Origin: an archaeon
Lineage (GTDB): Archaea; Nanobdellota; Nanobdellia; SCGC-AAA011-G17; GW2011-AR17
Length of the DNA: 64,000 nt
Direction: 5' to 3'
Assembly: GCA_043814545.1 (NCBI GenBank)
Contig: JBDRJY010000004.1
Span: 10,788 to 74,787 of the forward strand
Below are positions 5,148 through 61,694 of the stretch, piece after piece. Position 1 is the first letter of the stretch; each line of letters begins with the position of its first letter. Both the position numbers and the translations under genes were made by a program. The notes beneath the pieces were generated by a model. It worked only from the letters and a program-made list of their open reading frames with translations, did not search any database and was not told the origin of the DNA.

Positions 5148-5405
5148 ATGAACGCAAAAGACATACGCAAACACGAGCTTATCGGTTTGAAATGTGAAAT
5201 TGTTAACGCGTCAAACGCTTCATTGGTTGGGTGCAAAGGTACGATCGTCGATGAAACACGAAACACGATCATGCTCGATTGTGAGGGTCAAACAAAGACA
5301 ATCCTTAAGGAACAGGCGACCTTTAATATTAAAGTTGACGGTCAAGTTGTTCAAGTTGAAGGAAAAGATTTGGTTGCACGGCCTCATGACCGACTCAAAA
5401 AATAA
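5148..5405 (+). CDS. rnp1: RNase P protein component 1 (Rpp29/Pop4)
   Basis: ELIGLKCEIVNASNASLVGCKGTIVDETRNTIML and ARPHDRLKK match the archaeal Rpp29 Sm-like fold signature. Conserved position before uS17. Confidence 0.88.
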   Translation: MNAKDIRKHELIGLKCEIVNASNASLVGCKGTIVDETRNTIMLDCEGQTKTILKEQATFNIKVDGQVVQVEGKDLVARPHDRLKK

Positions 5406-8409: not shown

Positions 8410-8958
8410 ATGTTTCCCAAAGAAAGGTTAAGAAAAGAAATTGAAATACCAGAAGGTGTACAAGTTATAATAGATGGTAAAACAGTTAAAGTAATTGGCC
8501 CAGTTGGTGAAGTTCAAAGAATTTTAGCTTATCCTACTTTAGAAATTAAAATTGAAGGTAACAAAGTTATGTTTGAACCAAAAGTATTTTCTAAGAAAGA
8601 AAAAATGATTATAAACACTTTTGTTGCTCACGTTAACAATATGATACAAGGAACGCAAGAACCTTTTGTTTACAAGTTAAAAATTGCATCAAGCCACTTT
8701 CCAATGAATGTAACTCTTCAAGGTAAAGAAGTTGTTATAAAAAACTTTTTTGGTGAAAAAATTCCGAGAAGAGCTAGGATTATGGAAGGTGTCAAAGTTG
8801 AAATTTCAGGTGATATAATTACAGTTACTGCTAACAATAGAGAAGCTGCAGGACAAACAGCAGCTAATTTAGAACAATCCACTCGTATAACAAATAGGGA
8901 CAGGCGTGTGTTCCAGGACGGAATTTGGATAACTGAAAAAGCAGGGAAACAAATGTGA
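8410..8958 (+). CDS. rpl6: Large-subunit ribosomal protein uL6
   Basis: Two-domain uL6 pattern (IPEGVQVIIDGKTVKVIGPVG; SHFPMNVTLQGKEVVIKNFFGEK). Confidence 0.95.
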   Translation: MFPKERLRKEIEIPEGVQVIIDGKTVKVIGPVGEVQRILAYPTLEIKIEGNKVMFEPKVFSKKEKMIINTFVAHVNNMIQGTQEPFVYKLKIASSHFPMNVTLQGKEVVIKNFFGEKIPRRARIMEGVKVEISGDIITVTANNREAAGQTAANLEQSTRITNRDRRVFQDGIWITEKAGKQM

Positions 8959-9551
8959 AAATGGAAAAAATGCTAGAACTTCGGAATAAGAAAAAGGCGC
9001 AAAAACCTAATTTTATTAGACAGTGCGCTAACAAGATTGTGAGATTGCCAGAGGGTTGGCGTCAACCTAAAGGTATGCATTCCAAAACGCGTAGGAAACT
9101 AGCATCACGTAAAAAACATCCGTCTATGGGCTACTCTTCACCTAGAAAAGTACGCGGTTTACATCGTAAAGGTTTACAAATGGTAACAGTTGTAAAAATT
9201 TCCGACCTAAAAGATATTGATGTTAAAACTCAAGGTATTATTTTACAGGCAGTCGGCCAAAAACGTAAACTTGAACTGATTAAGAAAGCATTAGAACTAA
9301 AAATCACGATACTTAACATTCCAAAACCAGAACAATTTATTCAAGATGTTAAGGTTAAGATTGAATCTAAGAAAAAACAAGATCAAGAGAAAAAGGAAAA
9401 GAAAAAAGAATCTCGTGCAAAAGCTGAGAAGAAAGCTCAAGAAAAAGAAAAAGAAGAGCAAGAAACTGTTGAACAAACTCCTGAAGAGATTAAAGAGACT
9501 AAGAGAGAAGCTGAACGTGAGAAAGTTAAACTCTTGGAGGCCGGAGAATGA
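8955..9551 (+). CDS. rpl32e: Large-subunit ribosomal protein eL32 with long K/E-rich tail
   Basis: KPNFIRQCANKIVRLPEGWRQPKGMHSKTRRK core. Start ambiguous (GTG 8955, ATG 8961 or ATG 8970). About 70 aa of acidic/basic low-complexity tail. Confidence 0.9.
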   Translation: MKMEKMLELRNKKKAQKPNFIRQCANKIVRLPEGWRQPKGMHSKTRRKLASRKKHPSMGYSSPRKVRGLHRKGLQMVTVVKISDLKDIDVKTQGIILQAVGQKRKLELIKKALELKITILNIPKPEQFIQDVKVKIESKKKQDQEKKEKKKESRAKAEKKAQEKEKEEQETVEQTPEEIKETKREAEREKVKLLEAGE

Positions 9552-16304: not shown

Positions 16305-16710
16305 AGAATTTTAATGTATTTTTGCCTCGTAAAACCCTTTTTAAGATTTATGGATTTCATATCTGTGTTAAAGTTTCTTTTTGTTTATAAAGGCATATGT
16401 CTAGTATAATCTTACCTCTCTTTACACCTCTTTTTTTTCTTTTGATTTTTGTTTACTGTCTTAAATCTTGATATCACTTTGTAAAATTCAAATTTTGCTT
16501 ATGATAAATCTCCTCAAATTAGAAAAGTTTAAATATGCAAAAGTATACACTTCCGATATCAAAATCGTCCCGTTTTTGACCTAAGGAGCACAAAAATAAA
16601 TCAAACAAAACCGTTTGGTTCAGCCAGGATTCTATTGGAGCTTAACACAATGCATAATATTTTTCTATTCAATGATTCATTTTTCATGTTTTTATCAGGA
16701 GGTGATTGTT

Positions 16711-21610: not shown

Positions 21611-22747
21611 ATGGATTTAGAAAACATTACCCGCATTGATCCGCATGTACATTCTTTAGCATCTAACATGCCGTTTGATCATACAATGACTCATAGAATG
21701 GGTTTAGTAGACTGTTACAACGACCCTGAACAGGTTTACCGGATTGCTAAATCTAAAGGTATGGACTATGTTCCACTAACTGACCATAATGTTGTTTTTG
21801 AAGCTTTAAAATTAGCTGACAAATATGAGGATGTTATACCTGGTTGCGAGTTTGATGTTAATGTTTCGGGTTTTGAACAACCTTATGGTAAGGTATTTGA
21901 TTCTCAAGTTCCAGTAATACATGTGGTTGTGTTAGGTTTAGATGAACAGAAATATAATCTATTAAACAAGTTTAGGTATGTTGGTTTGGGCGAGTTTTTT
22001 GACATTTTAAATCATTATAAGTTAGCTAACTTCTGGGCGCATCCTGCATACTCTGAACATCCTCAAGCACCAATGACACCTGCTTTAATGGAAGGCATCT
22101 TGTCGTACTTTCGGTGTATCGCTACGCGTAATGGTAATATGAGACGGGAAAACAGGTTGGCTAAAGTTTTGGCTTCGATTCACGATAAAGCATGGGTTGG
22201 TGAAAGCGATTCTCACGTTTACAATACTATTGGGTTAACTTGGACAGGTACTGAAGGTAAAGTTTCGAAGGAAGAGTTTTTGGAACGGTTCAGGGAAGGT
22301 GAAGTTTTTTCAGGCGGTTTACAGGGCACGTTTAAACGCCAGCAAAAAGTTTTTATCGGTGTTAAAGATGAGTTTAGGAAATATGAAGTTTCTTGGTACA
22401 AGCAAAATTCTATTTTAGACAATCTTCAAGATCCAATGAAATATTTCGGGGTAAAATCAATACGAATGTTAAAGTTTCCATTGAACCGCGTTTTAAGTTT
22501 TGAATCGCGCATGCATTGGCTTAACCAATGGCGAAGAATTAGGAAACTTGAAAAAGCTTATATAGTTTATGACAATGGTAAGTATAAACAAAAATTTAAG
22601 AAAATCTCTTCTAAGATTAAACGTTTAGAAAAACAAAATCCTGGCGGCCGATATGATTTAGCTGATGATATTAATTTTACTTTTGGCGAAGAATTAGCTT
22701 TTGAGACTTATTCTATGTTAACATCATTTTGGAAAAGAGATTATTAA
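21611..22747 (+). CDS. PHP-domain metal-dependent phosphoesterase
   Basis: IDPHVHSLAS, PLTDHN, WAHPAY and GESDSH motifs in PHP order. Confidence 0.65.
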   Translation: MDLENITRIDPHVHSLASNMPFDHTMTHRMGLVDCYNDPEQVYRIAKSKGMDYVPLTDHNVVFEALKLADKYEDVIPGCEFDVNVSGFEQPYGKVFDSQVPVIHVVVLGLDEQKYNLLNKFRYVGLGEFFDILNHYKLANFWAHPAYSEHPQAPMTPALMEGILSYFRCIATRNGNMRRENRLAKVLASIHDKAWVGESDSHVYNTIGLTWTGTEGKVSKEEFLERFREGEVFSGGLQGTFKRQQKVFIGVKDEFRKYEVSWYKQNSILDNLQDPMKYFGVKSIRMLKFPLNRVLSFESRMHWLNQWRRIRKLEKAYIVYDNGKYKQKFKKISSKIKRLEKQNPGGRYDLADDINFTFGEELAFETYSMLTSFWKRDY

Positions 22748-23997
22748 TTTGACCCGTACATTTTGTCAACTCTTCTTTGAGCTTCTTGTTGAAGTTTAGT
22801 GTTTAAAACATTAGAGCCTCTATAACCTACACGAACTTTATGTGTTTTTCTTCCTCTTAAAAATTTAAAATAACTTCGTAAAGGCGATAAAGGTTTCTCG
22901 CCGTTCATTTGCAATAAATACCGTTGAGAATTGTCTCCAACTTTGTAAGCTAACCCTGAATCTTTATCATAATCTAAAGCAATAGTTGCCATGAAATCAA
23001 TAACTTCTTTCTCTGTCGGTAATTTGAAACTAGGATATTGTTGCTGAATTTCTGGTAAACGTTCTTCAAGAACAGTTGCAACATGTTCATCTTGTCCACC
23101 TTCGCACATTAACGGTGTGAATTTGTCAAATGTGTCAATTGCATCTAAACAGTATACACCTGCAGCAGGTTCAAGGCCTGCACGTAACTTATAATGCCAT
23201 TTGTAAACTAAGCCCGAACAAATTATTGCAAGGTCGTCAGAAATTCCACGTCCGAACTTTCTTCGAATATAACCTAAGACAACATTTTCAGTCGTAGCTA
23301 AACCATCCATCGGCACTTCAGGTACGATGCCTTTATCTCTCATTTTAGAAATATCATCTTCGCTCCATTCATATGAAGCAAGGTCTTTCAAATCAAGATT
23401 TTCGTTGTTTAATTTTACTAAATCAATAGGTAAACAATAACCGCCACCCATTTTGATACCATAAACTTCTTCAACTTTTTCTCTCCAATTAAAATTATCC
23501 ATGCAAGCACCAAGGTACATTCCAGTTAAGACAGCTTGCCTCCCTTTATTACCACTAATTTCAATGTCAGCTAAAGGGTAAGCTCCGAATAAAATGTTTT
23601 GACCTACTTTAAATTTTGAAACTTTTTTTCCTGTAATAATATCATCCAAGAATAGGTTGAAAATATCAATTTGTTTTTGCCTTTTTTGCATAACTTGTTT
23701 AGGTGTACAATTGATTGCGTTACCTTTATGCAACGCTTCAGTGATAGTATGAAAATTACTGTTAGGGTAAGGTATTTTATACATGCCATGGCCTTGTTCA
23801 GAATGGCCGCAAAGAGTTTGCATTAAAAGTAGTTTAGCAACTTCTTCAGTAGCATCTAATCTTACTCCAAGAAGATTGCTAAAATCAGCGACAGTTTCAT
23901 ATTCATATTGATCTAAAGAAGAATCAGCGAAAGCCTTTTTCCTAAATTTTTTAGGATTCCTATCGATTGTAGGTGGAGGAGATTTTCTCTTTGCCAT
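22744..23997 (-). CDS. Hypothetical 417-aa protein with basic N-terminus
   Basis: I place the start at the ATG at 23997 (MAKRKSPPPT). CTTTATAAAA on this strand (24021-24030) sits 23 nt upstream. The ORF-track extension to 24135 would overlap the 5S rRNA gene and its promoter. No family recognised. Confidence 0.55.
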   Translation of the reverse strand: MAKRKSPPPTIDRNPKKFRKKAFADSSLDQYEYETVADFSNLLGVRLDATEEVAKLLLMQTLCGHSEQGHGMYKIPYPNSNFHTITEALHKGNAINCTPKQVMQKRQKQIDIFNLFLDDIITGKKVSKFKVGQNILFGAYPLADIEISGNKGRQAVLTGMYLGACMDNFNWREKVEEVYGIKMGGGYCLPIDLVKLNNENLDLKDLASYEWSEDDISKMRDKGIVPEVPMDGLATTENVVLGYIRRKFGRGISDDLAIICSGLVYKWHYKLRAGLEPAAGVYCLDAIDTFDKFTPLMCEGGQDEHVATVLEERLPEIQQQYPSFKLPTEKEVIDFMATIALDYDKDSGLAYKVGDNSQRYLLQMNGEKPLSPLRSYFKFLRGRKTHKVRVGYRGSNVLNTKLQQEAQRRVDKMYGSN

Positions 23998-24020
23998 CTT
24001 AAGTTTGAGAATGAGAGGTA

Positions 24021-24030
24021 TTTTATAAAG
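24021..24030 (-). promoter_or_regulatory. TATA-like box for the 417-aa gene
   Basis: Reverse strand reads CTTTATAAAA, 23 nt upstream of the ATG at 23997. Confidence 0.4.
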
Positions 24031-24070
24031 CTTACCTTTGAACGATCTTATTTTGAAACTATTTTCCTTA

Positions 24071-24088
24071 ACCAAAACCTTTATAAAT
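24071..24088 (+). promoter_or_regulatory. BRE/TATA-like promoter of the 5S rRNA
   Basis: ACCAAAACCTTTATAAAT ends about 19 nt before the first paired base of 5S helix I. Confidence 0.5.
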
Positions 24089-24106
24089 CCGGGCAAAGTC
24101 ATAATT

Positions 24107-24224
24107 GTTGGACGGTCAAAGTGGCCTGGTTCCACCGGTTCCCATTTCGAACACCGAAGTGAAATAGGCTTACGTTCCTTTGTTGTACTGCTCTTTGAGC
24201 GGGAAGCTGGGAAAGCTGTCCACC
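24107..24224 (+). rRNA. rrf: 5S ribosomal RNA (stand-alone)
   Basis: CCCATTTCGAACACCGAAGTGAAATAGGC, ACGTTCC..GTACTG and CTGGGAAAG match universal 5S loop and helix elements. The termini pair (24109-24115 TGGACGG with 24216-24222 CTGTCCA, one G-U). A T6 run follows. Confidence 0.9.
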
Positions 24225-24230
24225 TTTTTT
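24225..24230 (+). terminator. Oligo-T terminator after 5S rRNA
   Basis: TTTTTT immediately 3' of the 5S helix I strand. Archaeal terminators are oligo-T tracts. Confidence 0.5.
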
Positions 24231-24264
24231 ATATTCTCTAAAACTTAATTTTTATACTCGAAAT

Positions 24265-24274
24265 CCTTATAAAC
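24265..24274 (+). promoter_or_regulatory. TATA-like box for the structured RNA candidate
   Basis: CCTTATAAAC ends 24 nt before the first base of the closing stem at 24299. Confidence 0.4.
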
Positions 24275-24298
24275 CTAAATATTATAGATAACTATTAC

Positions 24299-24453
24299 TG
24301 AGTTGAAGGGGGAACTAGGTCAGGACTGCCTTTCGGGGATGTGTCCGGTCTGACTGTCTTCGTGATGGTCTTCGACGAGTTTCGGCTTGTCACTTGATAG
24401 GTTTCGGCTTATCTACAGAACTTTCGGGTTCGAAAACCCTAGACTTCAACTCA
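24299..24453 (+). ncRNA. Unassigned structured RNA candidate (~155 nt, UUCG-hairpin rich)
   Basis: A 10-bp Watson-Crick closing stem joins 24299-24308 and 24444-24453. Internal hairpins are CGAGU[UUCG]GCUUG (24376-24389), GAUAGGU[UUCG]GCUUAUC (24396-24413) and GAACU[UUCG]GGUUC (24418-24431). There are seven TTCG tetramers and about 50% G+C by my count, against AT-rich flanks. G-U pairs fit the plus strand only. No plausible ORF. Confidence 0.5.
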
Positions 24454-24456
24454 ACA

Positions 24457-25602
24457 TTATTTTCTTCTTATAGTATCAATATAAACTTGCATTGTACGTT
24501 TAGCAATAGCGTCCCAAGTATAAGCTTTAGCTTTTTTCATATTAGCTTCAGACATTTTTTTTGCCATAGAAGGATTATCTAAAATTTTTAAAATAGCTTC
24601 TTCGATTTGTGGAACGTTTCCGTACTTAATGAATAAACCATTTTCAGGATCTTTCATTTCGTAAGGGATTCCGTTCACAGGTGATGCAATGATGGGTAAC
24701 CCTGAAGCCATTGCTTCGAATAAAGTTAAAGGCAAACCTTCTCTGTAACTTGGTAGAACATAAACATCAGCAGCTTGATACATTTCTGCAATATTTTTTT
24801 TACCAGATATTGCACCGGTGATATGAATCTTCGGATGTTTGTTTGCAATTTTTTTCAGTAAAGGTAAACGACCTTCATCTGGTCCGACAAAAACAAAATC
24901 AATATCTTTACGTTTTTTAAGAATATTTTGTGCAGCTATTGCTAAATGTTCAGGACCTTTTGTAGGATTTAATCGGCCAAAGAACAAAACCATTTTATTT
25001 TTTATTCCTAATTTTTTTTTATAATTGTTAGGTTTAATTTTTTCAAAAAGTATTTGATCCATTCCGTTAGGGATGACAACAATTTTTTTCTTGTTAACCC
25101 ATTTTTTTAAGGTAGGAACTTCCCAAGGGGTGATTGCAATGATTTTGTCTGTCATCGCAAATGCTAAACGATTGAAAATAATATTCGTGAAAAACAACGG
25201 TATCTTCACCTTCCACGGTCTGAACGCGTCTGTCCACGGACAATGTGTGGTATGAACATGTGCTGTACCTTTTAATCGGGAAACTAATCCTGCAAATAAA
25301 ACATAAGCGTGTCCGCCGACGTGAGAATGTATAACATCAAACTGATACTTGGACAACTGCCATAACAAACCGGGCCAGATAAAAGTACTTAAAGATAATC
25401 TGAACCAATAGCTAGACCGATGTACATGAACACCGTTAATAATTTCTTCCTTATTTTTAATTCTTTTATACTTGTCAGAATCACAACAGAACATATGCAC
25501 TTCATGCCCTTGTTTAACATACCGCTCAGCTAATTCTTGGATAACAACTTCAACGCCACCGAAGGTAGGCGTATAAAACATACTAACAAAAGCAATCTTC
25601 AT
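24457..25602 (-). CDS. Glycosyltransferase family 4 (GT-B)
   Basis: C-terminal E-x7-E region REGLPLTLFEAMASGLPIIASPVNG and an N-terminal GGVEV motif. 4-nt overlap with the upstream radical SAM gene. Confidence 0.88.
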   Translation of the reverse strand: MKIAFVSMFYTPTFGGVEVVIQELAERYVKQGHEVHMFCCDSDKYKRIKNKEEIINGVHVHRSSYWFRLSLSTFIWPGLLWQLSKYQFDVIHSHVGGHAYVLFAGLVSRLKGTAHVHTTHCPWTDAFRPWKVKIPLFFTNIIFNRLAFAMTDKIIAITPWEVPTLKKWVNKKKIVVIPNGMDQILFEKIKPNNYKKKLGIKNKMVLFFGRLNPTKGPEHLAIAAQNILKKRKDIDFVFVGPDEGRLPLLKKIANKHPKIHITGAISGKKNIAEMYQAADVYVLPSYREGLPLTLFEAMASGLPIIASPVNGIPYEMKDPENGLFIKYGNVPQIEEAILKILDNPSMAKKMSEANMKKAKAYTWDAIAKRTMQVYIDTIRRK

Positions 25603-39114: not shown

Positions 39115-40523
39115 ACAAACCTGTAGCGTTAGCAAAATTGGAAAAGTATTTTGAAAACATGAGCAGGGGCGGTTTCTATTTAGACAATGCGAACCATCCA
39201 ATTTGGGGTGTGGTTAACCCGACAAAACTTCCTCATACTTTCCAATATTATGGAATTATTCAAGGTTACCTTAATTTGTTTGATAATTTAGGCAAAGAAG
39301 AATATTTAGAAAAGGCAAAGGTGGCAGGAAATGCTTTATGTAAGTTACAAAGGCGTTCGGGCCAATACAAGTTCGACCTTTTCGAGTTTAATGATAGGAA
39401 AACTTTTGGCACGACCTTAATCCATAACGTTTTACCGTCGATATCTTTGATTTATTTAGCTAAAGAAACTAAAGACATGAAATATTTTAAAGTAGCGAAA
39501 CGCAATATTCTTTGGTCATTTGCAAGGTTATGGAAAGGCGATTGTTTATCTGGTTGCATAAACCAAGACATGTCAGCAGCTGAAGCTATCGCTTCTTTAT
39601 ACTTGATTGAAAAAAATAAAAATTATCTTAAGAAAGCTAAAATTGTTGCAGACTGGTGCGCCAATTATCAAATTAAGAAAGGTAAACACCAAGGCAGTTT
39701 CATTCGCGGTTTAGGCGAGGAAGAAATGGTTATACCTTGGTACACTGCTAAGACTGCTTTATCTTATTACAATTTATTTTTAATCACTCATGACAAAAAA
39801 TATTATGACATTGCAAAGAAAGCTACTTTGTTTCTTAGGGAACATGTTGTAAAGAACGGTCTTTTACATTGGTATTACAAAGCTAAGTTGAGGAAAGAAC
39901 CTTATTTAATTGCGCCAACAGGTTTAGTATATTTATTGTTTGAAATATTTGACATTTCTTACAAGCCAGAAATTTTGAACTATCAAACGCAAAATGGCGG
40001 TTATCCTTCGGCAAGAGGTGCCGGTAACGAGTTAGACTTACAAACAACTTCTAGCTGGAACCAGTTTATGTTTTTGTATTTATCTTACATTGTAACAGAA
40101 AAGTTACCTACAAAATTTGAGCTTAAAGAAGATGATATTCTTGTAAGCAAACCTAAAACTTTTTTGAAAGGTAAAGTGAAAGGGTTAAGTAAAGTAAACG
40201 GTTTTGTTGACTTAATTCAAGATCGTTATGTTTTAAGTACTGCAAGAATTTTTAACGGAAAGTTTTTGATACCTTGGAACCCTGGAACTTATGATTTAAG
40301 GATAAGACCTAATGCTGCACGATGGAAAGTGTTACCTGTTGATAAAACTACAAAAAAAGTTTCAACTTTTGTCTTGGACTATTCTTTGTTCCAAATATTT
40401 TACGATTTAGAATATATTCTAACAACCATAATGGTAAAAAATTTTAACAATAGTTTGTTTGACGACTTGCCTAAACTAAGGTTTGCAAAAAAGTATTTGA
40501 TAAAAAAATTAAAACGAGCCTAA
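39102..40523 (+). CDS. Hypothetical protein, possibly alpha/alpha-toroid repeat fold
   Basis: 473 aa overlapping the GT9 stop by 13 nt. Recurrent Q-x-x-G-x-(Y/F) elements (LQRRSGQYKF, KGKHQGSF, QTQNGGYPS) are reminiscent of terpene-cyclase or prenyltransferase-type repeats. Weak. Confidence 0.4.
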   Translation: MGKMNKPVALAKLEKYFENMSRGGFYLDNANHPIWGVVNPTKLPHTFQYYGIIQGYLNLFDNLGKEEYLEKAKVAGNALCKLQRRSGQYKFDLFEFNDRKTFGTTLIHNVLPSISLIYLAKETKDMKYFKVAKRNILWSFARLWKGDCLSGCINQDMSAAEAIASLYLIEKNKNYLKKAKIVADWCANYQIKKGKHQGSFIRGLGEEEMVIPWYTAKTALSYYNLFLITHDKKYYDIAKKATLFLREHVVKNGLLHWYYKAKLRKEPYLIAPTGLVYLLFEIFDISYKPEILNYQTQNGGYPSARGAGNELDLQTTSSWNQFMFLYLSYIVTEKLPTKFELKEDDILVSKPKTFLKGKVKGLSKVNGFVDLIQDRYVLSTARIFNGKFLIPWNPGTYDLRIRPNAARWKVLPVDKTTKKVSTFVLDYSLFQIFYDLEYILTTIMVKNFNNSLFDDLPKLRFAKKYLIKKLKRA

Positions 40524-41789: not shown

Positions 41790-42784
41790 TTTTTCAATAA
41801 GGTTCTCAGTTTCCAGTAAATTGGGTTAATCCAAAAGATAGACACGTTACACCGACGGTAACATTTTTTACAATGGAAAAACTTTTTACGTTTTTTATAC
41901 GCTAAACTAGATTTCCAAATGGAGGTAAAACTTTGCTTACGCAAATCTCCCCATGGTTTCTTGTTAAAACAAGGCTGGACAATACCCTTAGAACTTATAA
42001 AAACTTCATAACGGCCAGCATAACAAGGCACAGTACGTTCTTCAGCTTTCAATCTTTCTTGAAGGAAAAGATCATAGGTACGTTTGCCTGTATATTTTTG
42101 GATAACTTTCATTTGACGAAGAATATCTTCAATTTGTTCGCTGGTAAACTCAAATTTTTTATCTTTAATATCACCGAACCAGTTTTTAGCACTTTCAGCG
42201 TTAGTAAAACTAAAATTATACTTGCGATATCTCATGAATGTTGGTAAAAGATGTTTATAGTTCTCTTTGGTTAAGGTCATACTCAATGTTAACCGTTTAC
42301 CTAAACCATATTTTTCAACAATTTTAATACACTCGTCAACTCTTTCTAAAGAACCTTTAACACCACGTATTTTCTCGTGTACTTCTTTAGGCCCGTCGAC
42401 GGAAAAGGTTATACCTCCTATATGTTTGGAAGATTTCTGTAAAAACCGTTCTAGCATCTTAGGAATTAGACCATTAGTACTGATAGCAGGCTTCACCCCT
42501 GTTTTTTTATGTACGAAAGCAACAATTTCATTAATATCTTTACGTAATAAAGGCTCACCGCCAGTAAGAGTTACAGAAACTAAAGAATCTAACATTGGAG
42601 AATTAAAAATTTGTTTTATTTCAGATAAAGACAATTCATTTTTCTTAGCAGTCTGCCAAAAGTTACAGAATGTACATCTACTGTTACAATTTTCAGTCAC
42701 AGTTAATACTAAGTATAAAGGTTTAATTGGATAAAAAAACTGTTGTTTTTTCATACGCAAATATTTTTTTAAAAACGCAATCAT
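41786..42784 (-). CDS. Radical SAM protein with C-terminal Cys-rich (SPASM/twitch-like) region
   Basis: VTENCNSRCTFC (CX3CX2C). C-terminal VPCYAG...GIVQPC...HCKKCYRRC. Confidence 0.8.
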   Translation of the reverse strand: MIAFLKKYLRMKKQQFFYPIKPLYLVLTVTENCNSRCTFCNFWQTAKKNELSLSEIKQIFNSPMLDSLVSVTLTGGEPLLRKDINEIVAFVHKKTGVKPAISTNGLIPKMLERFLQKSSKHIGGITFSVDGPKEVHEKIRGVKGSLERVDECIKIVEKYGLGKRLTLSMTLTKENYKHLLPTFMRYRKYNFSFTNAESAKNWFGDIKDKKFEFTSEQIEDILRQMKVIQKYTGKRTYDLFLQERLKAEERTVPCYAGRYEVFISSKGIVQPCFNKKPWGDLRKQSFTSIWKSSLAYKKRKKFFHCKKCYRRCNVSIFWINPIYWKLRTLLKK

Positions 42785-44329: not shown

Positions 44330-45868
44330 TTATTTTGGCGTGACTTCTAAACCATTTTTAAGCTTGTTATAGAAAGATTCAGGCTCTGTGTCCAGGAAAA
44401 CGCTACTTTTGAACTGGTCCTTCAGTACATTTGCTAAGAAACCTGCAACATTAGTATCAGAACTGATCATGAACGGGTAACCATAATGGACATCAACCCC
44501 TTGGGCAGCGAAGAACATGCCTATTGCTAGAGATTTTTCAGTTATCGGCATAGGACAAGTTATTATGAACGGTAGTTCAGTCATTTCTTTGTTTAGGTTT
44601 TCGCTAACGCGTTTAAGGATTTCAGCGATTCTTGAGTTGTTAACACAAGATCCTAAATGGAAAACTCTTTGTCCATCCATCATACCACGTTTACCAACTT
44701 CGAAAGCTACACAACCTGTTGTTAAAATGATATAATCTTTTTTTAGTTTCTTGAAAACTTGCATCCATTGGTCGATGGGTGTACGTGGGTTAACACAACC
44801 AACCAAACCAATGATACCTTTAACTTCTTTATTCTTAACCATTTGGGAAAGTTTTTTTATGTTAATGTTATCTTCACAAAATCCAGTTGTAACTTCGATT
44901 GATTTAGTTTTTTGTTGAGAAAATAATTTGTTACAATCTTTTCTACGATTTTTTATGTTATCTTTTGCAATAGCAATAATTTTTTTAGCTGCTTCTTGAG
45001 CTTCAGTTTCTTTTGTTATTGGAAGATGTGTAGCGTTGGGCATCTTAGCAATTTCGTTAGTTGTGATTAGTTTGGTATGATAACATCCGCAAAGGTCTGA
45101 CACTGAAGGCATGATACATTGTATGTCTACAACCATAGCGTCGACGATTCCGGAAGCAATAACATTTTCTTGAAGAATAAAGTTAGCAGCCATCGGCACG
45201 CCAAACCTTGCAAGTAACGATGCACCAGTGCAACATACTCCGACTAGGTTAACATCTTTATGTTTTTTAGCTTCTTGTGCTATAGCTGAAGCAAACATAG
45301 GTTCATGTCCGTGCACCGCAATGTTAACTTTGTTTGGGTCTAAACATCCTAAATCCATTTTACCTTTTTTTATTTTAGGTTTGCCTAACCGTTCATCTTC
45401 TAACTGCGTAGCAAAATACATTCCGTAATAACCGTCAACAATACCAACTTTCATACAATTTTTTAAAACATCTTGGTAATCAGAGTTAACACCCATTGTT
45501 GTCATGTGCAACGATTCAGAAATATCTTTGAAATGTTCGAATTTAATTTTAGGGATAATACCTAACTTGTTCCAGAGTTTGTATAAATATGAAGGAGCTT
45601 TATCTTTGATGTAATTAGGAGGATAAGATTTGCTTAAATATTTCATAACATGGTAAGCATGCCCGCAATGTGCTGAAGCGCCTCCTGCTGTGAATCTTAA
45701 CACATTCCTTGCAACTATAAGATCTTGTGTAGCACCGCAAACCCCTTTCTGGTCAGGTTTACAAATGATACACGGCCCCATTAAACAGATTTTACAACAA
45801 AACCCTTGCTTTCCTATGGGACACTGTTTTTGCTTGACACGTTCAGAAATCATTGTAGGTTCAGCCAT
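44330..45868 (-). CDS. CooS-like Ni,Fe-CO dehydrogenase catalytic-subunit homologue (short form, 512 aa)
   Basis: N-terminal C-x7-CC-x2-C-x4-C...GVCGAT..ARN pattern of the D/B clusters. C-cluster ligand contexts are all present: VHGHEP, GVCCTG, DIQCIMP, VGCVNP, TTGCVA, LGSCVNNSR. Confidence 0.8.
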   Translation of the reverse strand: MAEPTMISERVKQKQCPIGKQGFCCKICLMGPCIICKPDQKGVCGATQDLIVARNVLRFTAGGASAHCGHAYHVMKYLSKSYPPNYIKDKAPSYLYKLWNKLGIIPKIKFEHFKDISESLHMTTMGVNSDYQDVLKNCMKVGIVDGYYGMYFATQLEDERLGKPKIKKGKMDLGCLDPNKVNIAVHGHEPMFASAIAQEAKKHKDVNLVGVCCTGASLLARFGVPMAANFILQENVIASGIVDAMVVDIQCIMPSVSDLCGCYHTKLITTNEIAKMPNATHLPITKETEAQEAAKKIIAIAKDNIKNRRKDCNKLFSQQKTKSIEVTTGFCEDNINIKKLSQMVKNKEVKGIIGLVGCVNPRTPIDQWMQVFKKLKKDYIILTTGCVAFEVGKRGMMDGQRVFHLGSCVNNSRIAEILKRVSENLNKEMTELPFIITCPMPITEKSLAIGMFFAAQGVDVHYGYPFMISSDTNVAGFLANVLKDQFKSSVFLDTEPESFYNKLKNGLEVTPK

Positions 45869-60809: not shown

Positions 60810-61694
60810 ATGACAGTAGGTTTATGTTTATCTAACGGCAAAGAAGCTTTTGTTCTTACAGACAGGTTAAGATCTCAGAATACAGAAGGCGGATATCATG
60901 CAACAAAACAGTCTTCTAAATTTGGAAAAAAATCTAGTTTAATTTTATCTTGTTCTGGAAACAGTGACTTGAACCAACTTTTACACGAAGAAGATATGAC
61001 TTTTGGTTCATTGGACGATTTCAACAAAATAATTCATGGTTTTATTGAAAATTATTTTCACGATTATTTGGTACAATCTGAAAGAGGCAAAAAAAGTTTT
61101 TTAATAAATTTGTCTGATAAAGGCCATAAGAAAGGAAGGAAGAGGGAGCATTTAAAATTAACTCAGAAAGAGATAGATGAAGTTATTCAACATACTTCAA
61201 TGGTTGTGGGTGTTGAAAACAATAAAATAAGAATTTATCAAGTTAATGTTAAGGGTCCACGGAGATTAAAAGTACAAACCCTTAACAAGCATGGTTCTGG
61301 AATGTATATGGCACGACGTTATTTAAACTCTTTCATGTCTGGTGTAAACTTTGAAAGTCTTTCAAATCAAAATATGGCATTACATATAATGAGTGCATAT
61401 TCTTATGCTCAACTTATGACTAGTGTAGGTGGTACACCAGATTTACATTCTATTGATACAAAAGGAACAATTTATAATTACAATTTAGCACAAAGGTGTG
61501 CAATGTCTAATGTTGCATCTGCGCGTATGGTACAAACCGTTGGATTAGCTCAAGCACGTTGGATGTTTGATTCAATTTTTCAAGAAAAAGATTATGATGA
61601 TATAGCAAGAACATTAAATTTAACAGAAACAACTTTAACAACAACTACAATACCTTACCTTTCTTGGCAAGAACGTGTTAACCATAAACAATAA
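60810..61694 (+). CDS. Divergent proteasome-type Ntn-hydrolase homologue
   Basis: MTVGLCLSNGKEAFVLTDRLRS parallels the mature T-TVG....G.V.A.D.R N-terminus of proteasome beta/HslV. Later SCSGNS and HGSGMYMARRYL match the AG..D and GSG blocks. At 294 aa it carries insertions. Confidence 0.5.
   Translation: MTVGLCLSNGKEAFVLTDRLRSQNTEGGYHATKQSSKFGKKSSLILSCSGNSDLNQLLHEEDMTFGSLDDFNKIIHGFIENYFHDYLVQSERGKKSFLINLSDKGHKKGRKREHLKLTQKEIDEVIQHTSMVVGVENNKIRIYQVNVKGPRRLKVQTLNKHGSGMYMARRYLNSFMSGVNFESLSNQNMALHIMSAYSYAQLMTSVGGTPDLHSIDTKGTIYNYNLAQRCAMSNVASARMVQTVGLAQARWMFDSIFQEKDYDDIARTLNLTETTLTTTTIPYLSWQERVNHKQ

What the first reader, a model, noticed from the sequence alone, without database searches (positions are those of the whole stretch)
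24299..24453. Unassigned ~155-nt GC-rich, UUCG-hairpin-rich RNA immediately downstream of the 5S rRNA
**Observed**
- This segment of a 230-bp non-coding gap is about 50% G+C, against AT-rich flanks.
- It is closed by a perfect 10-bp stem (24299-24308 with 24444-24453).
- That stem is extendable by CUAGG/CCUAG (24315-24319 with 24438-24442).
- It contains at least three clean hairpins capped by U-UUCG-G.
- TTCG occurs seven times.
- Five G-U pairs make the fold plus-strand specific.
- A CCTTATAAAC box sits 24 nt upstream, and a T-rich tract follows.

**What it does not match**
- I cannot fit it to a tRNA: no D or T arm geometry.
- I cannot fit it to SRP RNA: no GGAA/AGCA helix-8 motifs.
- I cannot fit it to a C/D or H/ACA sRNA, although a CUGA...GUGAUGG juxtaposition at 24350-24368 and an ACA right after the closing stem deserve a look.

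**Possible RNase P connection**
- It contains GGGGAUGUGUCCGGUC, CGGCUUAUC and ACAGAAC. From memory these resemble RNase P RNA CR-I and CR-V elements.
- Their order is not collinear with the canonical P4 arrangement.
- The window encodes Rpp29, so an RNase P RNA must exist somewhere in the genome.
- A drastically reduced RNase P RNA is therefore a speculative possibility, not a call.
Basis: partly seen in the sequence, partly recalled or inferred. Interest (0 to 1): 0.65.

Follow-up and report, generated by a model that had tools for sequence, protein, structure and literature searches.

The report
New five-hairpin small RNA gene
The GC-rich stretch after the 5S rRNA gene is a real, separately transcribed, tightly folded ~160-base RNA gene found so far in only three closely related tiny (Woesearchaeota-type DPANN) archaea; it matches no known RNA family, it is not a shrunken RNase P RNA, and its job is unknown.

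Summary
Window 24297-24455 (+) is a single-copy, 50% G+C island in a 32.5% G+C genome. It folds into a 14-bp terminal helix that encloses five hairpins.

It has its own TATA box, placed as far upstream as the box of the neighbouring 5S gene, and an oligo-T stop.

Two related metagenomic genomes keep the same order: GT4 gene, element, 5S rRNA, orphan gene. Their neighbouring proteins are 92/83% and 86/63% identical to the window's.

Across the three sequences:
- 98.7% of base-pair cells stay paired.
- Five pairs changed on both sides and stayed paired.
- Each sequence has 9-11 G·U pairs, so the plus strand is the RNA.

The RNase P idea is refuted. A canonical archaeal RNase P RNA (132 bits) and an SRP RNA (146 bits) lie elsewhere in the genome.

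There is no Rfam match even at E≤10. The C/D-like and ACA boxes are not conserved. There is no Ro60 gene.

No homologue was found in 36 other genomes of the family, 240 of the order or 401 of the class, nor in viral, phage or plasmid collections.

My best reading is a new, genus-restricted stable sRNA that probably binds protein. The terminal helix, junction, H1 and H5 form a conserved core, and H2-H4 are duplicated structural arms. Function is inferred, not shown. No RNA-seq could be consulted.

The parts
24266..24274 (+). Archaeal TATA-type promoter box (CTTATAAAC) of the sRNA gene
   Evidence: TTATAAAC is invariant in all three genomes, while the surrounding spacer falls to 61% identity. 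It ends 21-24 nt before the first conserved bases. The 5S box at 24080-24088 lies 21 nt before the 5S start, the same spacing. The box on its own is not enriched in the window: 10 found, 14 expected.
24297..24455 (+). Body of the sRNA (about 159 nt). The inferred 5' end is near A24294-A24297 and the 3' end lies in the following T tract.
   Evidence: Covariance-model matches cover model positions 1-159 in L079 (142.8 bits) and L081 (123.2 bits). Conservation starts at TTAC|TGAG and stops after CTCRRC. It is single copy in the genome.
24299..24308 (+). P1a, 5' strand of the 10-bp terminal helix; pairs with 24444-24453
   Evidence: Perfect complement. All 10 pairs are kept in 3 of 3 sequences; 3 pairs vary on one side through G·U.
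24309..24316 (+). P1b 5' strand (GGGG, pairs with CCCU at 24437-24440) plus junction AACU. The AGA bulge on the other strand is at 24441-24443.
   Evidence: The bases are invariant in the three sequences, so the choice between GGGG/CCCU and CUAGG/CCUAG cannot be settled by covariation.
24317..24351 (+). H1, a long hairpin with a conserved internal loop (UG / GAUGU) and a variable apical loop
   Evidence: helices 3-4: one pair changed on both sides and two cells are mismatched. 23% of its columns vary, mostly in the apical loop.
24352..24370 (+). H2, a 7-bp hairpin
   Evidence: U·G became G·U (change on both sides) and G·U became G-C; 100% of cells are paired. The GUGAUGG 'C-box' reads GGGACUG in L079.
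24374..24391 (+). H3, a 7-bp hairpin with a UUCG loop
   Evidence: Three pairs vary on one side and stay paired. It shares the 13-nt direct repeat GTTTCGGCTTRTC with H4 at 22-nt spacing.
24396..24413 (+). H4, a 7-bp hairpin with a UUCG loop; likely a duplicate of H3
   Evidence: Two pairs changed on both sides (A-U to G-C, U-A to C-G) and two changed on one side. Direct repeat with H3.
24418..24431 (+). H5, a 5-bp hairpin with an invariant UUCG loop
   Evidence: C-G became U-A (change on both sides) and U·G became C-G.
24432..24453 (+). Junction GAAAA, P1b 3' strand (CCCU), AGA bulge and P1a 3' strand
   Evidence: CCCTAGACTTCAACTC is invariant in the three sequences.
24457..24469 (+). Oligo-T tract (TTATTTTCTTCTT), the presumed archaeal terminator. 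It overlaps the stop codon (24457-24459) and the last codons of the convergent GT4 gene.
   Evidence: TTTATTTT(C/T)TT follows the terminal helix in all three genomes. In L079 the GT4 gene is 340 nt further away and the tract is still there.
24108..24224 (+). Neighbouring 5S rRNA gene. It is context only, not part of the sRNA.
   Evidence: RF00001, 62.6 bits. The 5S gene lies directly upstream of the element in L079, L080 and L081 too.

Best explanation
SHOWN: Window 24297-24455 (+) is a single-copy gene for a structured non-coding RNA of about 160 nt. The RNA belongs to a family that is not in Rfam.
- The gene has its own TATA box and an oligo-T stop.
- The 5' and 3' ends pair in a 14-bp terminal helix (10 bp, a 3-nt bulge, 4 bp).
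- That helix closes a six-way junction carrying five hairpins.
- The family has been sampled in only three closely related Woesearchaeota-type DPANN genomes.
- In all three the gene lies between a GT4 glycosyltransferase gene and the 5S rRNA gene.

INFERRED: It is a metabolically stable, trans-acting, protein-binding RNA (an RNP scaffold or decoy).
- The most conserved part is the terminal helix, the junction, H1 with its invariant internal loop, and H5. This part would be the specific binding platform.
- H2-H4 are kept as helices but are free in sequence. They look like duplicated hairpin modules that act as structural arms.
- The paired ends and UUCG-type loops would protect the RNA from exonucleases in a 32.5% G+C organism.
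- I put about 0.85 on 'real new sRNA gene' and about 0.35 on the protein-binding scaffold mechanism specifically.
For: - Fold: plus strand -53.9 kcal/mol, z -2.3; minus strand z -0.8.
- Homologues: found only by synteny, through the orphan neighbour gene. Matches are L079/L080 at 142.8 bits and L081 at 123.2 bits over the full model, each with 5S directly upstream.
- Pair counts: 52 pairs; 98.7% of cells paired, against 28-55% when partners are slid by 1-3 columns; 5 pairs changed on both sides; 1 of 500 shuffles reaches the observed score. RNAalifold independently gives the same helices.
- Strand: 9-11 G·U pairs per sequence, so the structure exists only on the plus strand.
- Selection: against L081 the element is 79% identical, the spacer 61%, the region upstream of 5S 51%, and 5S 94%.
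- Where variation falls: 39% of unpaired columns vary against 23% of paired columns. By region, 16% vary in the terminal helix and junction, 21-23% in H1 and H5, and 33-44% in H2-H4.
- Gene signals: the TATA box and oligo-T are conserved while the neighbouring spacer is not.
- Duplication: H3 and H4 share a 13-nt direct repeat at 22-nt spacing.
- No exposed conserved single strand: junctions are 3-6 nt and loops vary. This argues against an antisense guide and for recognition of shape.
Against: - No transcript data.
- Only three distinct sequences, 79-85% identical, so covariation support is real but thin.
- The terminal-helix extension is invariant and therefore untested.
- No partner protein is identified. 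The neighbouring orphan protein has no recognisable RNA-binding domain.
- Restriction to one genus-level clade means the function cannot be essential or ancient. The alternative is that the RNA evolves too fast to be traced.
Confidence: 0.6

Rival explanations
1. A drastically reduced RNase P RNA that works with the Rpp29 encoded in the window.
For: Rpp29 is indeed in the window.
Against: A canonical full-length archaeal RNase P RNA lies at G000:C6:65558-65859 (RF00373, 132.2 bits, model 1-288). RF00373 gives no match to the element even at E≤10. The claimed motifs are not collinear with P4.
Confidence: 0.01
2. The RNA is a substrate of the tRNA-splicing endonuclease. The terminal helix (10 bp, a 3-nt AGA bulge on the 3' strand, a 4-bp GGGG/CCCU helix, then AAC in the junction on the 5' strand) has the handedness of a relaxed bulge-helix-bulge (bulge-helix-loop) motif. 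The inner ~125 nt would be cut out and ligated into a circular RNA, as happens with archaeal pre-rRNAs and some sRNAs.
For: Geometry and handedness fit hBH-L, and all bases involved are invariant. The genome has an EndA gene and many intron-containing tRNAs. From my own knowledge (these papers were only listed, not read): circular archaeal sRNAs and rRNA intermediates made via BHB motifs are known.
Against: There is no inner helix h', so it is not a canonical hBHBh'. The only EndA hit is a single 186-aa open frame. From my own knowledge, that size fits the strict homotetramer type rather than the broad-specificity forms. In L079 and L081 the central helix can be 5 bp rather than the required 4. 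This genome's own 16S and 23S processing stems show no canonical BHB. The alternative pairing CUAGG/CCUAG costs only about 3 kcal/mol more and abolishes the motif.
Confidence: 0.08
3. A ribosome-linked RNA: either an extra small RNA associated with the large subunit, or a factor in 5S or ribosome biogenesis. In this reading it is kept next to the 5S gene so that both are expressed together.
For: The order 5S-then-element is conserved in all three genomes. Both genes have the same type of TATA box at the same distance from the RNA start. Size and closed-end architecture resemble a small rRNA.
Against: Adjacency over such a short evolutionary distance may simply be inherited. In 29 other genomes of the same family the 5S flank holds no such RNA. 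The 16S-23S operon spans a typical length (about 1.47 kb from the 16S end motifs and about 2.9 kb between the 23S processing-stem flanks), so no rRNA piece is obviously missing, though I did not align it to a model. There is no sequence similarity to rRNA models.
Confidence: 0.12
4. No RNA function. It would be a DNA-level palindrome array, a relic of a miniature mobile element with terminal inverted repeats, or merely a read-through barrier between the 5S gene and the convergent GT4 gene.
For: Terminal inverted repeat of 10-19 nt. Very narrow distribution. Hairpin units that look duplicated.
Against: It is single copy in the genome, with no match in viral, phage or plasmid collections. The 9-11 G·U pairs and wobble-mediated substitutions preserve pairing only in plus-strand RNA. 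It is better conserved than the flanking non-coding DNA. It has its own conserved TATA box. In L079 a 94-aa gene is inserted between it and GT4 and the element is unchanged.
Confidence: 0.07
5. A strongly diverged member of a known class: tRNA with introns, SRP RNA, C/D or H/ACA guide, Y RNA/YrlA, or a self-cleaving ribozyme.
For: There is a GGUUCGAA T-loop-like string at 24427-24434. CUGA...GUGAUGG and ACA occur in the window sequence. A long terminal stem plus a hairpin module recalls Y RNAs.
Against: ARAGORN finds no tRNA. Rfam's 4227 models find nothing at E≤10. SRP RNA is elsewhere. The C/D-like and ACA boxes are not conserved. The T-loop-like string is occupied by H5, which covaries, and the loop it would form is 8-9 nt rather than 7. 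No TROVE/Ro60 gene is present.
Confidence: 0.03

Closest known systems
CsrB/CsrC and RsmX/Y/Z protein-sponge sRNAs (Bacteria)
   Same: A stand-alone sRNA gene with its own promoter and terminator. The body is an array of similar short hairpins that look duplicated. Loops and stems drift while the hairpin format is kept.
   Different: There are no GGA loop motifs, and CsrA is not known in archaea. Here the hairpins are enclosed by a long terminal helix in one multi-way junction, and the most conserved part is the junction and H1, not the loops. The resemblance is functional analogy only; no binding protein is known.
5S rRNA (Rfam RF00001)
   Same: It is the direct neighbour and has the same promoter type and spacing. 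Both are small, G+C-rich RNAs with a terminal helix formed by the 5' and 3' ends.
   Different: 5S is a three-way junction of 120 nt, while this is a six-way junction of ~160 nt. RF00001 does not match it. It is far less conserved (79% against 94% identity to L081).
Archaeal RNase P RNA (Rfam RF00373; types A, M and the reduced type T)
   Same: It is a G+C-rich structured RNA in an archaeon that encodes Rpp29.
   Different: There is no match to RF00373, and the canonical RNase P RNA is present elsewhere in the genome.
Y RNA / bacterial YrlA
   Same: A long terminal helix with a bulge, plus a compact multi-hairpin module containing a T-loop-like GGUUCGAA string.
   Different: No Ro60/TROVE gene is present. 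There is no Rfam match. The T-loop-like string is part of a covarying ordinary hairpin.
BHB-flanked archaeal RNAs (pre-16S/23S processing stems, circular sRNAs)
   Same: A long processing-stem-like helix with a 3-nt bulge followed by a 4-bp helix, in the correct handedness.
   Different: The second bulge is replaced by the junction and there is no inner helix. The central helix length is not fixed. This genome's own rRNA stems lack a canonical BHB.
Other unclassified modular UUCG-hairpin sRNA genes of DPANN archaea noted earlier in this scan (e1-3240125, e1-4494772). These are unpublished AI notes.
   Same: Small G+C-rich RNA genes in DPANN genomes, built from repeated UUCG-capped hairpins and absent from Rfam.
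   Different: No sequences were available to compare, so any relationship is untested. Those RNAs are described as 2-3 hairpins without an enclosing terminal helix, and they lie next to other genes.

Membership tests
Archaeal RNase P RNA (RF00373) | Match to the covariance model (P4 pseudoknot with CR-I/CR-V in collinear order) | tested here: not met
   No match at E≤10 over 24000-24700. The genome's true RNase P RNA scores 132.2 bits at C6:65558-65859.
Archaeal RNase P RNA (RF00373) | It is the only candidate RNase P RNA in the genome | tested here: not met
   One search finds a full-length canonical copy elsewhere.
Archaeal SRP RNA (RF01857) | Match to the model (helix 8 / helix 5 motifs) | tested here: not met
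   No match. The SRP RNA is at C15:7224-7498, 145.7 bits.
tRNA | Cloverleaf with D and T arms | tested here: not met
   ARAGORN finds 0 genes in the window. RF00005 gives no match. The T-loop-like string would form an 8-9-nt loop and is occupied by the covarying H5.
Box C/D sRNA | Conserved C (RUGAUGA) and D (CUGA) boxes forming a k-turn or k-loop | tested here: not met
   GUGAUGG in the window reads GGGACUG in L079, and CUGA reads CAGA in L079. These bases form the covarying helix H2.
Box H/ACA sRNA | ACA box 3' of a hairpin with a pseudouridylation pocket and k-turn | tested here: not met
   ACA (window) reads GCT in L079 and ACT in L081. No hairpin has a large internal pocket.
Y RNA / YrlA | Co-occurrence with a Ro60 (TROVE) protein gene | tested here: not met
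   PF05731 gives no match in the 98.7%-complete genome at E≤1.
MITE / mobile element | Multiple dispersed copies with terminal inverted repeats | tested here: not met
   One copy in the genome. None in viral contigs, phages or plasmids.
BHB (hBHBh') substrate of the splicing endonuclease | Two 3-nt bulges on opposite strands, separated by exactly 4 bp and flanked by two helices | tested here: inconclusive
   The outer helix, one 3-nt bulge and a 4-bp helix are present in the window. The second bulge lies in the junction and there is no inner helix. The central helix may be 5 bp in the relatives.
Stand-alone structured sRNA gene (generic) | Own promoter and terminator, conserved secondary structure with covariation, strand specificity | tested here: met
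Stand-alone structured sRNA gene (generic) | A discrete transcript is detected | not testable with these tools

The most novel reading that the evidence does not exclude
The element is one member of a wider, still undescribed habit of DPANN archaea. In this reading they build lineage-specific stable RNAs by tandem duplication of UUCG-capped hairpin modules. This one would be a protein sponge or an extra ribosome-associated RNA, co-expressed with 5S rRNA. It would give tiny-genome archaea a fast-evolving RNA layer of regulation with no counterpart among described archaeal RNA families.
Probability: 0.15. Interest if true: 0.65.

Novelty: new variant of a known kind. Interest (0 to 1): 0.42.

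Why it matters
Very few non-coding RNAs are known from DPANN archaea beyond rRNA, tRNA, RNase P and SRP RNA. These organisms are uncultured and their genomes are annotated almost only for proteins.

This element is a clean case of a covariation-supported RNA gene that automated annotation overprints with spurious ORFs. It belongs to no Rfam family and appears to have arisen recently, within one genus-level clade, partly by hairpin duplication.

If it binds a protein or the ribosome, it would show how reduced archaea invent new RNA parts.

In practical terms, the result removes a false lead (a minimal RNase P RNA). It also gives a covariance model and coordinates for future metatranscriptome checks.

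Tried and rejected
1. Rfam: at gathering thresholds on the window, and at E≤10 on 24000-24700, only 5S and a chance snoRNA hit inside the GT4 gene appeared.
2. BLAST of the element against 60 relatives: only chance 14-25-nt matches. The best one (G051, also the only covariance-model hit in the order search, E 0.39) lies inside an open reading frame, so I rejected it.
3. Covariance models:
   - The single-sequence model R1 found nothing in 36 other family genomes.
   - The three-sequence model R2 found nothing in 240 order genomes or 401 class genomes.
   - R2 with filters off found nothing in the 5S flanks of 28 family genomes.
4. 5S-downstream regions of family genomes: no comparable G+C or TTCG island.
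5. GT4 orthologues at ~60% identity from metagenomes (L060-L069): different gene neighbourhoods and no element.
6. The orphan protein P0002 in genome contigs: nothing found. Its 35%-identical homologues sit in a different, Cas4-linked context without the RNA.
7. Exact spaced-motif scan of 185,579 species genomes and of viral contigs: 0 hits. Phage and plasmid blastn: no match.
8. K-turn readings of the H1 internal loop, of H2 and of the P1 internal loop: I checked the registers by hand and none gives tandem G·A pairs next to a 3-nt bulge.
9. Short peptide coding: only 4- and 10-codon frames, broken by indels in the homologues.
10. Antisense target search: own-genome matches are at most 15-17 nt, about what chance gives in 1 Mb, and none falls in an rRNA or tRNA gene.
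11. Tandem Repeats Finder: no significant array. Only H3 and H4 share a 13-nt repeat.
12. Literature searches: nothing on such an RNA.

Full report
**1. What is at the coordinates**

The 232-bp gap lies between the 5S rRNA gene (24108-24224, RF00001, 62.6 bits) and the stop codon of a convergent GT4 glycosyltransferase gene (24457-25602, minus strand). It holds a block of 50% G+C in a genome of 32.5% G+C.

- The 10-bp terminal stem (24299-24308 with 24444-24453), the CTAGG/CCTAG complement, the seven TTCG and the CTTATAAAC box are all as described.
- Seven TTCG in 155 nt compares with 0.38 expected. It is the densest cluster in the whole 1.03-Mb assembly.
- The next-densest clusters lie in coding sequence.
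- The plus strand folds to -53.9 kcal/mol (z -2.3). The fold is a 14-bp terminal helix enclosing five hairpins. The minus strand folds poorly (z -0.8).

**2. It is not one of the known RNAs**

- ARAGORN finds no tRNA.
- Rfam 15 finds nothing in 24000-24700 at E≤10, apart from 5S and a chance hit in the GT4 gene.
- The window's genome (G000, 25 contigs, 98.7% complete) carries a canonical archaeal RNase P RNA at C6:65558-65859 (132.2 bits, full model).
- It also carries an SRP RNA at C15:7224-7498 (145.7 bits).
- Rpp29 is indeed in the window (5163-5402), but it already has its RNA. The reduced-RNase-P idea is therefore refuted.
- The element is single copy and absent from viral, phage and plasmid collections. 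It is not a MITE.
- No Ro60/TROVE gene exists in the genome, which removes a Y-RNA-like reading.

**3. Relatives**

Direct searches failed:
- BLAST against 60 relatives.
- A single-sequence covariance model against the family.
- Inspection of 5S flanks in 29 family genomes.

GT4 orthologues at about 60% identity from metagenomes sit in other contexts.

The way in was the orphan protein P0002, which is divergent from the 5S gene. It has only nine homologues among 5.8 billion proteins, including P0003 (83% identity) and P0004 (63%).

The contigs of P0003 and P0004 keep the gene order GT4, element, 5S, orphan, PHP. Model R1 matches them over its full length:
- L079:2446-2609 and the identical L080, 142.8 bits.
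- L081:4571-4734, 123.2 bits.
- 5S lies directly upstream in each.

The GT4 proteins of these two relatives are 92% and 86% identical to the window's. The next best of 851 homologues is at most 69% identical and is annotated Woesearchaeota or Nanoarchaeota. So the clade that holds the RNA is a narrow, genus-level group of Woesearchaeota-type DPANN archaea with three sampled members.

The three-sequence model R2 finds nothing in 240 genomes of the order or 401 of the class. An exact spaced-motif scan of 185,579 species genomes also finds nothing.

**4. Evidence that it is a functional RNA gene**

Conservation, from the alignment of the whole 5S-element region. Identity to L081:

| Region | Identity to L081 |
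|---|---|
| Upstream of 5S | 51% |
| 5S | 94% |
| 5S-element spacer | 61% |
| Element | 79% |

- Within the spacer, TTATAAAC stays invariant.
- Conservation resumes exactly at TTAC|TGAG, 21-24 nt after the box. The 5S box lies 21 nt before the 5S start, the same spacing.
- Conservation ends at the terminal helix, which TTTATTTT(C/T)TT follows in all three genomes.
- In L079 an extra 94-aa gene separates the element from GT4. The element does not depend on that gene's 3' end.

Base pairing across the three sequences:
- 98.7% of 155 pair cells are standard pairs, against 28-55% when partners are slid by 1-3 columns.
- Five pairs changed on both sides and stayed paired, in H1, H2, H4 (two) and H5.
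- Ten more pairs changed on one side only and stayed paired through G·U.
- Only 1 of 500 shuffles reaches the observed covariation score.
- RNAalifold recovers the same helices.
- Each sequence has 9-11 G·U pairs. The mirrored minus-strand structure would lose them, so the constraint acts on plus-strand RNA, not on DNA palindromes.

**5. Anatomy**

- P1a: 24299-24308 with 24444-24453.
- P1b: GGGG at 24309-12 with CCCU at 24437-40. An AGA bulge lies at 24441-43.
- Junction: AACU.
- H1: 24317-24351, with an invariant UG / GAUGU internal loop and a variable tip.
- H2: 24352-70. H3: 24374-91. H4: 24396-413. H5: 24418-31.
- Junction: GAAAA.

Every hairpin starts GA and ends UC. H3 and H4 share GTTTCGGCTTRTC at a 22-nt spacing, which suggests growth by hairpin duplication. 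TRF sees no significant array.

Variable columns make up 16% of the terminal helix and junction, 21-23% of H1 and H5, and 33-44% of H2-H4.

- Loops of H1-H3 drift among UUCG, UUCUG, UUUUGG and UUAACG, so they are not sequence-specific recognition sites.
- Junction strands are 3-6 nt, and some of them vary.
- No conserved exposed strand is available for antisense guiding.
Both are invariant, so the choice is open.

**6. How it most likely works**

Shown: a conserved, strand-specific, independently promoted structured RNA.

Inferred: a stable trans-acting RNA recognised by shape, most plausibly by a protein.
- The P1/junction/H1/H5 core would be the binding platform.
- H2-H4 would be structural arms.
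- The paired ends and UUCG-type loops fit a long-lived RNA.

I put about 0.85 on the gene being real and about 0.35 on the scaffold or sponge mechanism.

Rivals:
- **(a) BHB-like excision and circularisation.** The arrangement of 10 bp, a 3-nt bulge, 4 bp and then the junction has the right handedness. Against it: there is no inner helix, and the genome's only EndA hit is a single 186-aa frame. The central helix may also be 5 bp in the relatives, and the genome's own rRNA stems show no canonical BHB.
- **(b) A ribosome- or 5S-linked role.** This rests only on conserved adjacency and similar promoters.
- **(c) No RNA function.** The G·U pattern, the single copy and the conservation above background contradict this.
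- **(d) A diverged known class.** Each class tested failed.

**7. Comparison and novelty**

It resembles multi-hairpin sponge sRNAs (CsrB/RsmZ) in format, and 5S rRNA or Y RNA in its closed ends. It meets the defining features of none of these (see the membership table).

- It is a new RNA family of an ordinary kind, a stand-alone structured sRNA, with an unusual closed five-hairpin layout and a very narrow distribution.
- Earlier notes of this scan mention other unclassified UUCG-hairpin sRNAs in DPANN genomes. I could not compare sequences, so this is only a lead. It does suggest that such RNAs recur in DPANN genomes.

**8. Limits**

- There are only three distinct sequences.
- No partner protein is known.
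- Whole-genome covariance searches rely on a pre-filter and on stricter Infernal filters above 40 genomes, so fast-diverged homologues could have been missed.

Noticed in passing
Outside the window, same genome: G000:C4:~470-665, C4:~1850-2045, C4:~8815-9000, C1:~60990-61160 (loci L093, L094, L095, L104): A family of at least four copies of a ~170-200-nt plus-strand structured repeat. They share a three-way-junction core: a GGGCUUAUGAG...CUCAUAAGCCC closing stem with two hairpins. Folds have z of -2.5 to -3.8 on the plus strand, except the broad 331-nt window around the C4:8815-9000 copy (z -0.6). There is no Rfam match at E≤0.01. It is unrelated in sequence to the 5S-downstream RNA. It may be a second novel sRNA family or a transposon-associated guide-like RNA.
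   Followed up: partly
G000:C3:~40370-40500 / 41970-42010 (16S flanks) and ~42180-42215 / 45135-45170 (23S flanks); outside the window: The rRNA processing stems of this genome are long and nearly perfect. The 16S stem is 17 bp plus 4 bp across a 1x2 internal loop. The 23S stem is about 32 bp with a 1-nt bulge. Neither shows a canonical bulge-helix-bulge motif.
   Followed up: partly
window 22747-23997 (-): The orphan 417-aa protein P0002, divergent from the 5S gene, has no Pfam or PDB match. It has only nine homologues among 5.8 billion proteins. The distant ones (33-36% identity) sit beside a Cas4-like PD-(D/E)xK nuclease gene in other archaeal MAGs.
   Followed up: partly
L079:2106-2390 (-) (equivalent to the window's plus strand, between the element and GT4): The closest relative has an extra 94-aa gene of unknown function inserted between the sRNA gene and the GT4 gene. 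It is absent from the window and from L081.
   Followed up: no
Whole genome G000: ARAGORN finds only 32 tRNAs and misses several. No Lys, Gln or Phe tRNA is called. Three further tRNAs were found by Rfam in G+C islands at C14:~112230-112315, C14:~114650-114720 and C21:~16385-16457. ARAGORN also calls a tRNA-Asp with a 960-nt 'intron' at C1:57347-58398, which needs checking.
   Followed up: no
G000:C21:13988-14248 (-): The only tRNA-splicing endonuclease (PF01974) hit is a single 186-aa open frame. Yet the genome has many intron-bearing tRNAs, some reportedly at non-canonical positions (scan note e1-1354801).
   Followed up: no
window 24038-24241 (+), 22744-24135 (-), 24394-24582 (+): The mechanical ORF list overprints both the 5S gene and the 3' part of the sRNA gene with spurious 62-67-aa frames, and it over-extends the orphan gene to 463 aa. 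Automated annotation would probably hide both RNA genes.
   Followed up: yes
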